From: Octopus vulgaris
Taxonomy: Eukaryota
Length of the DNA: 64,000 nt
Assembly (NCBI GenBank): GCA_951406725.2
Contig: OX597823.1
Location: 52,762,001-52,826,000, forward strand
Direction: 5' to 3'
Within the stretch, counting starts at the first letter, position 1. The number at the start of each line of letters is the position of its first letter. A program made the position numbers and the translations under genes. Shown one piece after another: positions 6,233-59,136 of this stretch. The notes beneath the pieces were generated by a model that saw only the letters and a list, made by a program, of their open reading frames with translations, was not told the origin of the DNA and ran no database searches.

Positions 6233-6312
6233 CCTGCACACACACACATATATATGTATATATATATATATATTTAAAAAAGGAGATGTGGAACACGAGT
6301 TGTGATATATAA

Positions 6313-6630
6313 AAAAAGGAAATGAAGAAAATGCTGACAAAATAATTTAAGTAAGGGAGAGTGTATTTAATTAGGTGAAAGTTCTTTTTACCGGTTGCGC
6401 ATTTGTTATGCTTATCAAAAGATATTTTGAGTGAGATAGAGTTCCTTTCTGGTTGATTTTTTTCTCTTATCTCATAAGAGAAAAAAATCAACCAGAAAGG
6501 AACTCTATCTCACTCAAAATATCTTTTGATAAGCATAACAAATGCGCAACCGGTAAAAAGAACTTTCACCTAATTAAATACACTCTCCCTTACTTAAATT
6601 ATTTTGTCAGCATTTTCTTCATTTCCTTTT

Positions 6631-6631
<1 letters not shown>
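6313..6631. repeat. Perfect fold-back palindrome (158 bp arms, 3 nt loop) between (TA)n tracts, carrying a degenerate hammerhead in each arm
   Basis: Arms 6313-6470 and 6474-6631 are reverse complements (ORF track gives the same peptide on both strands); 6522-6561 reads tctt-TTGATAA-gcat-aacaa-atgc-GCAA-CCGG-TA-aaaaga. Confidence 0.95.
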
Positions 6632-6661
<30 letters not shown>

Positions 6662-12796: not shown

Positions 12797-12872
<76 letters not shown>

Positions 12873-12878
<6 letters not shown>

Positions 12879-13411
12879 TAAATTAGAGATAAAACCACTA
12901 TTAGGCAAATCAAACAATAAAAAACATAAGCCAATACATAAAATTAATTAATTTATATTATTTTAAATATATATCAAAAGTATTAAAAGTTTAATAAAAG
13001 ATAAAGAGTAAAACACTACGATCGTTTCATGGCTGTACAATTCGTAATAATTCAAGTTATGGTTACAGTCAATCTTCAGGTAATTGAAATATTTATCTTA
13101 GCGAGGTTTAGCAATGAACTAAAATTTAATAATAATAATATTAAGGAGTAAATCCAAACTTACAGGGAAAAATTAGATTTAGGATTAAATCTAATTTCAC
13201 AGTAAAATATAGATTAAATTAGAGATAAAACCACTATTAGGTAAATCAAACAGTGAAAAGCATAAACCAAAACATAAAAATAAAAATAATTAATATAATA
13301 TGCAAAATACAAAATACATAATGTAAATATATTAATTATTTTTATTTTTATGTTTTGGTTTATGTTTTTCAATGTTTGATTTGCCTAATAGGTTTTATCT
13401 CTAATTTAATA
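12873..13411 (-). mobile_element. Non-autonomous Penelope-like element: direct plus inverted terminal repeats with a hammerhead
   Basis: ttaaattagagataaaaccactattagg..aatcaaac at ~12878 and ~13214 (direct), inverted at ~13330-13410; (TA)n on both sides; hammerhead at 13012-13084. Confidence 0.75.
13012..13084 (-). ncRNA. Minimal type-I hammerhead ribozyme
   Basis: Minus: tac-CTGAAGA-t-tgactgta...tacagcca-t-GAAA-CGATCG-TA-gtg; palindromic stem III, GUA triplet. Confidence 0.75.
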
Positions 13412-13421
13412 TATATATGTA

Positions 13422-13528
13422 TATATAGCTATGACAATACATATTCTAAAATTGGAATGATACAGAGAAGATAAGCATAGCTCCTGTGCAAGAATGACAC
13501 ATGAATTCGTGAGGCATTCCATATTTCT
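13422..13528 (+). pseudogene. RNU6: U6 snRNA pseudogene (near full length, diverged)
   Basis: acatattctaaaattggaatgatacagagaagataagcatagctcctgtgcaagaatgacacatgaattcgtgaggcattccatatttct aligns collinearly with canonical U6 incl. ACAGAGA box; many CpG-type substitutions; no upstream PSE/TATA recognised. Confidence 0.92.
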
Positions 13529-22759: not shown

Positions 22760-23528
22760 CTAATAGTAAGGGATTATCAATCTAGCAAAATACTTAATAA
22801 ACTCTCTGTTGGCATACCAGGCTAACAGTATTGTTTAGATAAATGAAGGCCTCCAAGTATTCTTATGGTAGGGTCCAAGGTTATGATTCATTATAATCCT
22901 GTACTGTAAATCTGTGGGTGGGCTCCAGACAAACTGGTTTTACAGAATGATGTATAAGACAAAGTATAAATAATGTTAAATAATGTTCATTACATATTTT
23001 TCCTTTATTAGTACAAACAGGTTTATTGAATTTGTCTATTGATCAACTGAGAAAAATTGAACAACCTAAAAAAGTTAATGCTACTTTCTTCAGAGTCATT
23101 TCTGGTTATAACACGGGTAATATATCCAGGCAGGTACTGTTCAAGCACTCAATTAAAATCCAAGTTATGGCTAAGTACATTGAATAGTAAAGGGCACCTA
23201 GAATTATTTGTGGTAAGCAATTCTAATGTATTTCGTATGATGAGTAAATCCTGGGTTTGCTTCATTTGGTTATAAATACGACAATGCCTCAATATATGAG
23301 TTAATTTGTTCCCAGAGACTACTCATAGAGAAACATATCATAAAGTAGAGCAATAATTTCCGATAGCAGCAATGTTATAAATCATAATTCATTCCCAGAA
23401 AAATATTTTACTGATAGAATTTATAATACTCATAAATAAATGGTAATAAAACAACAGTAGAATGTACAGACTATTTTATGTAAAGTAAAAGTAATATCGA
23501 GATCATTTATAATAAAAAATATTATTAT

Positions 23529-23837
23529 TGTGATAGTCCCATGAAAGGGAAGAATGTTACTGCTATTTAGCCCTAGGAAACACCGTTTCCTGCTGGCCAT
23601 GACACATTTTCTGTGTCCTTATGTTTTCAAAGGGAGAGATAAGCACCTCCACCCAGCAAAGCCAGCATCCAGAGACTAGTTTCAGAGTCATTGCTCATCA
23701 TCAGTCTGGAGTAGCATGGCTTACTATCTCCTCCTTTGACAATATAAGGACACAGAAAATGTGTCATGGCCAACAGGAAAAGGTGTTTCCTAGAGCTAAA
23801 TAGCAGTAGCATTCTTCCCTTTCATTGGACTGTCACA
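23529..23837 (-). mobile_element. Rod-like fold-back element with terminal hammerhead ribozyme
   Basis: ~110 bp imperfect inverted arms (tgtgatagtcc..gacacattttctgtgtccttat / ataaggacacagaaaatgtgtc..ggactgtcaca) enclosing the hammerhead. Confidence 0.88.
23668..23710 (-). ncRNA. Type-I hammerhead ribozyme, intact core
   Basis: Minus: TCCAGA-CTGATGA-t-gag-caatga-ctc-t-GAAA-CTAG-TC-TCTGGA; 6 bp stem I, palindromic stem III (ACUAGU), GUC triplet, predicted cut between 23674 and 23673. Confidence 0.88.
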
Positions 23838-24286
23838 TTAAGTTGACAACATACCATCACTTTATCGTGCTGCTACTGTATAAATCTCTCTGAGAGATTT
23901 AGAAATGTAATATTAATATTGTTATCATTATTATTATAATCGTTTTCTGCATCACTTTCGTTTGCACTAGACTCAGTCGTACCATCACTTGTAGATGTGA
24001 TCACTGATTCACAAGCACTCATAGATGGACTTGTAGATTTCTTTTTAAAAAACAAGTCTAGAGTGGTTGGAACACTTCTGATCACAAAGTCTGCACTATC
24101 TGACCTTAGACAAATTAACAACAATGATAATAACTTTAGCAACAATGATTAAGCAATTAATTAAATAGATACATTCTTACATAAACAACGCAGATTAAAC
24201 TCATTATGAACAGAATAATTAACATTTAGAATATATTTCAGAGATATTTTCTCCAAAAACAAACCAATAGTAACTTAATAACATAT

Positions 24287-59090: not shown

Positions 59091-59136
59091 GACACCTGAT
59101 GAAGGCTGGAGGGTATATCAGGCGAAACGTTGTGTT
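59091..59136 (+). ncRNA. Minimal type-I hammerhead ribozyme
   Basis: GACAC-CTGATGA-a-ggctg-gagggtatat-caggc-GAAA-CG-TT-GTGTT; loopless palindromic stem III (AACGTT), GUU triplet. Confidence 0.75.

What the first reader, a model, noticed from the sequence alone, without database searches (positions are those of the whole stretch)
23529..23837. Rod-shaped 309 bp element with an intact GUC hammerhead at the hairpin tip
Seen: ~110 bp inverted arms continue via aagcca/tggctt into a 6 bp stem I (TCCAGA/TCTGGA). The minus-strand transcript would therefore fold as one long rod capped by CUGAUGA/GAAA/GUC. The ribozyme lies in the unique loop, not in the arms, unlike the usual pseudo-LTR layout. Inference: a MITE-like or retrozyme/viroid-like non-coding replicon whose long stem I might stabilise cleavage despite the minimal stem III. 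The U residues flanking stem II are a core variant also seen at 13012-13084.
Basis: partly seen in the sequence, partly recalled or inferred. Interest (0 to 1): 0.85.

Follow-up and report, generated by a model that had tools for sequence, protein, structure and literature searches.

The report
Back-to-back hammerhead retrozyme insertion, Penelope-type
The rod shape is one insertion of a 348-base non-coding repeat with a predicted self-cutting RNA motif, written as two back-to-back partial copies, most likely by a Penelope-type retrotransposon enzyme; it is a new family of a known kind, not a viroid-like replicon or a MITE.

Summary
The rod and the hammerhead core are real, but the stated ends are wrong. 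The insertion is about 23529-23914, with a likely 11-bp target duplication. It belongs to a dispersed family (114 exact core copies) whose unit is a circularly permuted 348-nt sequence with a minimal type I hammerhead.

The arms are not terminal inverted repeats. They are a sense partial unit joined to an inverted, 5'-truncated partial unit. Across copies the joints vary, but the outer ends fall at two fixed points about 55 nt apart, one per side (61 of 63 informative insertions). This is the published Penelope-like (PLE) tandem/inverted-plus-tail layout, so the family reads as a PLE-mobilised non-LTR retrozyme. Only 15 of 98 core copies are rods. Copies are about 5% diverged, and this one lacks the unit's likely promoter.

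One less ordinary detail: joints are modestly enriched in register within the ribozyme's long stem I (6 of 57, P=0.005). One-ORF LINE-like elements also insert 26 nt upstream of this and related cores. This scan reported both the two-ended insertion pattern and the LINE targeting before, on other DNA of this genome. Cleavage, circles and the partner enzyme are untested.

The parts
23529..23914 (.). Whole insertion (about 386 bp): a sense partial unit plus an inverted partial unit, back to back
   Evidence: Alignment to family copies. The right end is uncertain by a few bases in AT-rich sequence.
23518..23528 (+). Likely left target-site duplication (11 bp, 1 mismatch to the right copy)
   Evidence: Read. 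It is low-complexity, so weak alone. Family-wide, 30 of 58 insertions have a 10-22 bp duplication against 3 of 174 shuffled flank pairs.
23915..23925 (+). Likely right target-site duplication
   Evidence: An alternative register (23518-23529 with 23909-23920) also fits with 1 mismatch.
23529..23726 (-). Sense partial unit (unit positions about 326 to 174): 5' strand of extended stem I, hammerhead, 3' strand of stem I, arm. Ends about 26 nt short of the family's first end-point.
23668..23710 (-). Minimal type I hammerhead: stem I 23710-23705/23673-23668, core 23704-23674, 3-bp stem II with a U-U base, palindromic stem III region ACUAGU, predicted cut 23674/23673
   Evidence: Identical to the family majority. 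Activity untested.
23725..23726 (.). Joint of the two partial copies: 2-nt microhomology (TA), inside the extended stem I but about 14 nt out of pairing register
   Evidence: Junction mapping
23725..23914 (+). Inverted, 5'-truncated partial unit (unit positions about 63 to 252). Its first 113 bp form the right arm.
23864..23914 (+). Tail between the family's two end-points (unit about 202 to 255), present on this side only
   Evidence: Bimodal ends

Best explanation
This is one copy of a 348-nt non-coding hammerhead repeat, made of a sense partial unit joined to an inverted truncated one, and it was likely written by a Penelope-like enzyme that primed two DNA copies from the two strands of a staggered cut. 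Shown: the unit, the two-part build, two fixed outer end-points with one on each side, 10-14 bp target duplications, and variable joints with short microhomology. Inferred: each cut strand primes reverse transcription at one of two internal start points of the RNA; the two cDNAs stop early and are joined; when both stop in the ribozyme's extended stem I, the result looks like a rod with the hammerhead at the tip. The template was likely a circle or multimer, because many copies carry sequence from upstream of the inferred transcription start. The window copy has lost the promoter-like segment, so it is likely a dead-on-arrival copy and the rod a by-product.
For: (1) 348-nt circularly permuted unit with head-to-tail partial tandems such as L102 and L027. 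(2) Sense 3' ends are bimodal: 51 of 101 at unit 190-205, 37 of 101 at 244-270. Among 90 distinct back-to-back insertions, 63 have both outer ends at a defined point; 61 use one of each, 2 use the first twice, 0 the second twice. (3) Target duplications in 30 of 58 against 3 of 174 controls. (4) 57 of 86 copies without a LINE insert have an adjacent inverted copy; joints spread over unit positions 87-348, mostly with 0-5 nt microhomology. (5) The two arms of one insertion differ at 76 of 443 polymorphic-site cells (17%) against 40% between insertions, and share rare variants 13% against 4%. (6) 46 of 86 copies extend over the whole promoter-like segment upstream of the inferred start (counted). 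(7) Published match: inverted 5'-truncated copy and a tail on one end (PMC8557442); two internal RT start sites delimit the tail and both strands are cut and extended (PMC11167929). (8) RT plus GIY-YIG PLEs with 781-aa open frames exist in this genome.
Against: No autonomous partner sharing the unit's ends was found among 50 GIY-YIG loci; only 150 of 6136 candidates were scored. No locus with two head-to-tail cores was seen among 146 distinct cores, so the tandem criterion for an active retrozyme is not met. The tail (about 55 nt) is longer than the 30-40 bp described. The window copy's sense end is at neither fixed point. Within-insertion arm agreement is incomplete (17% against a 9% background) and could also come from gene conversion or shared subfamily age. 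RNA reads showed no pile-up of ends at the cut site.
Confidence: 0.85

Rival explanations
1. A MITE (non-autonomous DNA transposon) with about 110-bp terminal inverted repeats that carries a hammerhead in its spacer.
For: Long arms, 103 of 113 matching. The 21 best non-self BLAST hits are nearly all full-length rod-like matches, but the query selected for that.
Against: Family sequence continues past both supposed termini, and the two ends differ by a tail. Rods are 15 of 98 core copies; inner joints vary widely. Duplications are 10-14 bp at variable registers.
Confidence: 0.02
2. A viroid-like rod RNA that replicates or transposes as a whole 309-386 nt unit, with the long stem enabling cleavage.
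For: Strong rod fold. 15 of 57 inverted copies have both inner ends in extended stem I.
Against: Rods have independent joints. This copy has one hammerhead and no promoter-like ATCAGT segment upstream. The arms differ by 9%, without the identity expected of a maintained duplex.
Confidence: 0.03
3. One cDNA folds back on the ribozyme's extended stem I and copies itself (snap-back synthesis), making the inverted arm.
For: In-register stem joints 6 of 57 against 1.7 expected, P=0.005. Arms of one insertion share variants.
Against: Snap-back can only give an inverted arm equal to or shorter than the sense unit. In 27 of 40 informative insertions, and in this one, the inverted copy carries the tail that the sense unit lacks. 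Most joints are out of register.
Confidence: 0.06
4. The unit is the pseudo-LTR of an autonomous Penelope-like element, and these copies are its severely 5'-truncated insertions rather than a self-contained retrozyme.
For: Minimal type I hammerhead and PLE-type ends. PLE insertions are commonly 5'-truncated (PMC8557442).
Against: Upstream of the hammerhead, copies lead back into the unit's own tail, not into an ORF. tblastn of a PLE protein on 218 loci gave one short hit. No shared novel sequence follows the tail.
Confidence: 0.05

Closest known systems
Metazoan non-LTR retrozymes (Cervera & de la Pena 2020, PMC7229834, passages seen; Li, Clavereau & Pollet 2026, 10.64898/2026.07.22.740005, part 1 of 5 and passages seen)
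   Same: Non-coding unit of 150-450 nt (mussel 350-390) with a type I hammerhead, GC under 50%, duplications longer than 4 bp, PLE mobilisation proposed. U-U at the base of stem II as in axolotl HHR_Amex2.
   Different: The hammerhead is the minimal PLE-type form (1-2 bp stem III), not the canonical invertebrate one. No dimers or multimers with two cores among 146; copies are mostly sub-unit back-to-back pairs. 'Inverted' does not occur in the main text of PMC7229834 and occurs only in a reference title in the 2026 preprint. Circular RNA is not shown here.
Penelope-like element insertions (Craig et al. 2021, PMC8557442, passages seen; Frangieh et al. 2024, PMC11167929, parts 1-2 of 4 seen)
   Same: Partial tandems, an adjacent inverted 5'-truncated copy, a tail on one end only, two fixed end-points, a minimal hammerhead upstream of those points, AT-rich targets.
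   Different: No ORF. The tail is about 55 nt against 30-40 bp. The unit is circularly permuted and has an snRNA-like promoter motif. The partner enzyme is not identified.
Tx1-clade target-specific LINEs that insert into other transposons (Tx1 in Tx1D, Tx1-Mar; PMC4494074, passages seen) and half-L1 elements (HAL1: recalled, search listing only) - for the side finding
   Same: Insertion at one fixed site of another repeat, tandem re-insertion, about 14-17 bp duplication, 3' end just after AATAAA.
   Different: The target is a hammerhead repeat at an inferred transcription start. The copies examined encode only a zinc-knuckle ORF. Clade membership was not tested here (no RT recovered).

Membership tests
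Non-LTR retrozyme | Short (150-450 nt) non-coding repeat unit without LTR | tested here: met
   348-nt unit; no long ORF tied to the unit
Non-LTR retrozyme | Type I hammerhead core in the unit | tested here: met
   All 13 core positions intact here and in 24 of 29 arm- or tail-selected copies. Minimal form; no Rfam hit.
Non-LTR retrozyme | Head-to-tail repeats with at least two complete hammerheads (Li et al. criterion for an active element) | tested here: not met
   0 such pairs among 146 distinct cores in 188 loci; partial tandems up to 1.5 units exist. This was a sample, not the whole genome. The result lowers 'active tandem retrozyme', not 'works like a retrozyme'.
Non-LTR retrozyme | Target duplication longer than 4 bp | tested here: met
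   30 of 58 against 3 of 174; mostly 10-14 bp
Non-LTR retrozyme | Self-cleavage and circular RNA | not testable with these tools
   Reads lie on both strands equally; unit-length 'goes back' joints also exist as genomic tandems
Penelope-like element, insertion signature | Inverted 5'-truncated copy adjacent to the 5' end | tested here: met
   57 of 86 copies
Penelope-like element, insertion signature | Tail on one end only, from two RT start points | tested here: met
   61 of 63; about 55 nt
Penelope-like element, autonomous | RT plus GIY-YIG ORF within the element | tested here: not met
MITE | Fixed terminal inverted repeats defining both ends | tested here: not met
MITE | Uniform length and a short fixed target duplication | tested here: not met
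Viroid-like replicon | Circular RNA replicated through both polarities, with a unit-length conserved rod | tested here: inconclusive
   One hammerhead, one polarity, rod not conserved as a unit; RNA replication itself cannot be tested here

The most novel reading that the evidence does not exclude
The ribozyme hairpin is a structural part of the insertion reaction. A Penelope enzyme copies one circular retrozyme RNA from both cut strands at two fixed start points. The two cDNAs, complementary where they copy the two sides of the extended stem I, anneal there and close the insertion, giving the rod. The circle carries its own snRNA-type promoter, whose start site is parasitised by one-ORF LINEs.
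Probability: 0.3. Interest if true: 0.55.

Novelty: new member of a known kind. Interest (0 to 1): 0.3.

Why it matters
As a single locus it is ordinary: a likely inactive, roughly 5%-diverged copy. The family gives genomic support for a link the literature proposes but has not shown mechanistically, that PLE enzymes mobilise animal retrozymes. It supplies exact predictions for the published in vitro PLE assay: start points near unit positions 200 and 255, one per strand, and joining favoured in stem I. It also shows that palindromic 'MITE-like' calls in such genomes can be retro-insertions. This scan has reported the same pattern for younger families in this genome, which are better test material.

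Tried and rejected
1. The idea that the window copy's sense unit begins at the RNA's 5' end was rejected. Only 4 of 86 copies start at unit 321-325 (mean for equal windows 3.5), and this joint maps to 326-328.
2. A TTAA/piggyBac-type end was rejected: the TTAA is internal family sequence.
3. Partner search: 148 GIY-YIG matches, 50 loci examined. The two extended hits were sister repeats lying near a PLE, not its terminus.
4. Rfam: nothing relevant among the 150 of 217 listed window matches or the 10 local ones.
5. One search was aimed at the wrong locus, so its query was the tail; its 30 loci served as a tail-selected sample.
6. Expression: no RNA holder of the window stretch was listed, which is no evidence either way. 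Three RNA runs of the same species label, about 6% of each read, laid on family copy L102 at 85% likeness gave 463-593 reads each, on both strands, 86-87% running on into unlike sequence, and no pile-up at the cut or start site. Expression of the window locus itself remains open.
7. Monomer fold: the lowest-energy structure is not the active one; the ACUAGU palindrome gives a 6-bp intermolecular duplex of -6.2 kcal/mol. A full dimer model was not obtained (the script crashed).
8. Literature searches showed no paper on octopus retrozymes, on twin priming by PLEs, on retrozyme promoters, or on LINEs targeting hammerheads. The library lacks most subscription papers, and Repbase and supplementary files were not seen.

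Full report
Observation. The minus strand of 23529-23837 folds as a long rod (-196.6 kcal/mol, z -19.6), with arms matching at 103 of 113 bases. At its tip is a complete minimal type I hammerhead core: stem I of 6 bp, CUGAUGA, a U-U pair under a 3-bp stem II, GAAA, C-UA-G and GUC, with the predicted cut at 23674/23673 (numbering recalled). The lowest-energy fold pairs the core bases otherwise, and forcing stems I and II costs about 2 kcal/mol. Rfam gives no hammerhead match. The genome has 2.8 Gb in 227 contigs. Relatives of a family-linked protein are named as octopus proteins, so the host is taken to be an octopus.

It is a family, and the ends are not where stated. A DNA search gave 3097 candidates, of which 40 were scored. 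Nearly all copies share sequence beyond both supposed termini. An exact 31-nt core occurs 114 times and a 31-nt arm word 237 times, with reversed controls 0. At about 5% divergence per copy this suggests some 500 core-bearing copies (inference). I examined 101 distinct exact-core copies: the 100 listed places plus one unlisted. Three duplicates were dropped, leaving 98. Upstream of the hammerhead most copies lead back into the unit's own tail, which defines a circularly permuted 348-nt unit. The long stem I belongs to the unit itself (z -6.8 in non-rod copy L102). In the window the insertion spans about 23529-23914. It is a sense partial unit on the minus strand and an inverted partial unit on the plus strand, joined by a 2-nt microhomology at 23725-23726 and flanked by a likely 11-bp duplication.

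Architecture. Sense 3' ends fall at unit 190-205 in 51 of 101 copies, at 244-270 in 37, and elsewhere in 13, including this one. Of 90 distinct back-to-back insertions in 188 loci, 63 have both outer ends at one of these points. Of those, 61 use one of each, 2 use the first twice and none the second twice (this set includes rod-selected loci). Duplications of 10-22 bp flank 30 of 58 insertions against 3 of 174 controls. Of the 98 copies, 57 have an inverted partner, 29 do not and 12 carry a LINE-like insert. Only 15 are rods with both inner ends in the extended stem I. In other insertions the hammerhead lies in both arms or in neither. This excludes a MITE.

Match to PLE work. Craig et al. describe an inverted 5'-truncated copy and a tail on one end for PLEs (PMC8557442, passages). 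Frangieh et al. show that a PLE protein cuts and extends both strands and starts at two internal points that delimit the tail, and that uncleaved RNA is the main substrate (PMC11167929, parts 1-2 of 4).

Mechanism (inferred). A PLE enzyme makes a staggered cut. Each strand primes a cDNA at one of the two start points. Both cDNAs stop early and are joined. Snap-back of one cDNA cannot give the commoner class, 27 of 40, in which the inverted copy has the tail. The two arms of an insertion differ at 17% of polymorphic-site cells against 40% between insertions, and share rare variants 13% against 4%. This fits one template or one source lineage, though conversion could contribute and the match is incomplete. 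Joints lie in pairing register within stem I in 6 of 57 cases against 1.7 expected (P=0.005), suggesting that the two cDNAs sometimes anneal through the RNA's own hairpin. The window copy is not one of these. PLEs with intact RT and GIY-YIG frames exist here, but no partner sharing the unit's ends was found in 50 loci.

Promoter and template. Following a lead from earlier notes, I compared U2 genes. 18 of 20 U2 loci have ATCAGT or a one-base variant about 57-60 nt upstream of the start; the other two have an AATAAA-type 3' end there. The unit has ATCAGT 58 nt upstream of position 323, followed by a TATA-like run. Sister families 64-73% identical keep the motif at about the same distance from their LINE insertion site. 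Position 323 is therefore a likely start under an snRNA-type promoter. This rests on a 6-mer and spacing, chosen after the fact. 46 of 86 copies extend over this whole segment, so the template must have held sequence upstream of the start: a circle or a multimer. No locus with two head-to-tail cores was seen among 146, and the longest sense run is about 1.5 units. Short cDNAs would seldom rebuild a source locus, which may explain the family's decline (inference). The window copy lacks the motif upstream of its core.

Selection and expression. In 29 arm- or tail-selected copies spanning the core, 24 have all 13 core positions intact. Core cells differ in 16 of 377 against 124 of 1755 in the arm (P=0.05; P=0.18 without polymorphic sites). 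This fits neutral decay of copies from sources with an invariant core. Family-like RNA reads are present at a low level, on both strands, mostly embedded in other sequence, with no ends at the cut site.

Side finding. Twelve of the 98 copies carry a different element joined 26 nt upstream of the core. Full examples (L155, L091, L156) are about 1.9-2.2 kb, encode one zinc-knuckle ORF (PF00098 over cut-off for L155, weaker for two others, none for the L156 fragment), end after AATAAA and duplicate about 14-17 bp of target. Of the 30 best genome matches to one such 3' end, 12 are followed by this unit, 8 by a target half-site and apparently another insert, 7 by other hammerhead families at 26-27 nt spacing, and 3 are unclear. 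More distant relatives of the ORF sit in arrays without this target. No RT-bearing partner was recovered here. Earlier notes report this targeting on other DNA.

Verdict. A real feature with wrong boundaries. It works like a PLE-mobilised non-LTR retrozyme and meets its unit, ribozyme and duplication features, but in the sample it fails the two-core tandem criterion for an active element. It is a new member of a known kind; interest 0.3. Papers were seen as passages or parts as stated; their supplements were not read and may list cephalopod families.

Noticed in passing
L155 (G000:C16:20269400-20277000), L091, L156, L219-L248: One-ORF zinc-knuckle LINE-like elements, at least three families by 3' end, inserted 26-27 nt upstream of hammerhead cores of this and other families, with about 14-17 bp duplications and tandem re-insertion.
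   Followed up: partly
L323-L342 (U2 loci) and unit positions 265-323: ATCAGT about 57-60 nt upstream of U2 starts and 58 nt upstream of the LINE insertion site in the unit. L328 and L335 have an AATAAA-type 3' end directly before U2.
   Followed up: partly
L309, L310, L315, L317, L229, L240, L079, L345: Sister hammerhead repeat families 60-73% identical to this unit, some with a CCGAUGA core.
   Followed up: partly
window 12860-13430: A separate AT-rich repeat with a partial tandem plus an inverted copy and a degenerate hammerhead core at 13012-13084 (minus strand); same layout, unrelated sequence.
   Followed up: partly
window 13419-13528 (+): U6 snRNA match, 85 bits, with several changes and no clean T-run; probably a pseudogene.
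   Followed up: no
window 59096-59127 (+): Another minimal hammerhead-like core (CUGAUGA...GAAAC) in a different repeat.
   Followed up: no
window 6305-6639: Near-perfect palindrome: 166-nt arms, 99% complementary, 3-nt spacer, flanked by TA runs.
   Followed up: no
L170-L177 (G000:C1:150061245-150064761): A ribozyme-less back-to-back copy of the unit amplified in a tandem array of about 900 bp period.
   Followed up: no
L303-L308, L312-L313, L319-L321: Young tandem arrays of about 1.8-kb one-ORF zinc-knuckle elements with intact 457-aa frames, not beside this hammerhead.
   Followed up: no
L343, L344, L359-L361: A young PLE family with intact 781-aa RT plus GIY-YIG frames and no hammerhead found by my pattern within the fetched stretch.
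   Followed up: partly
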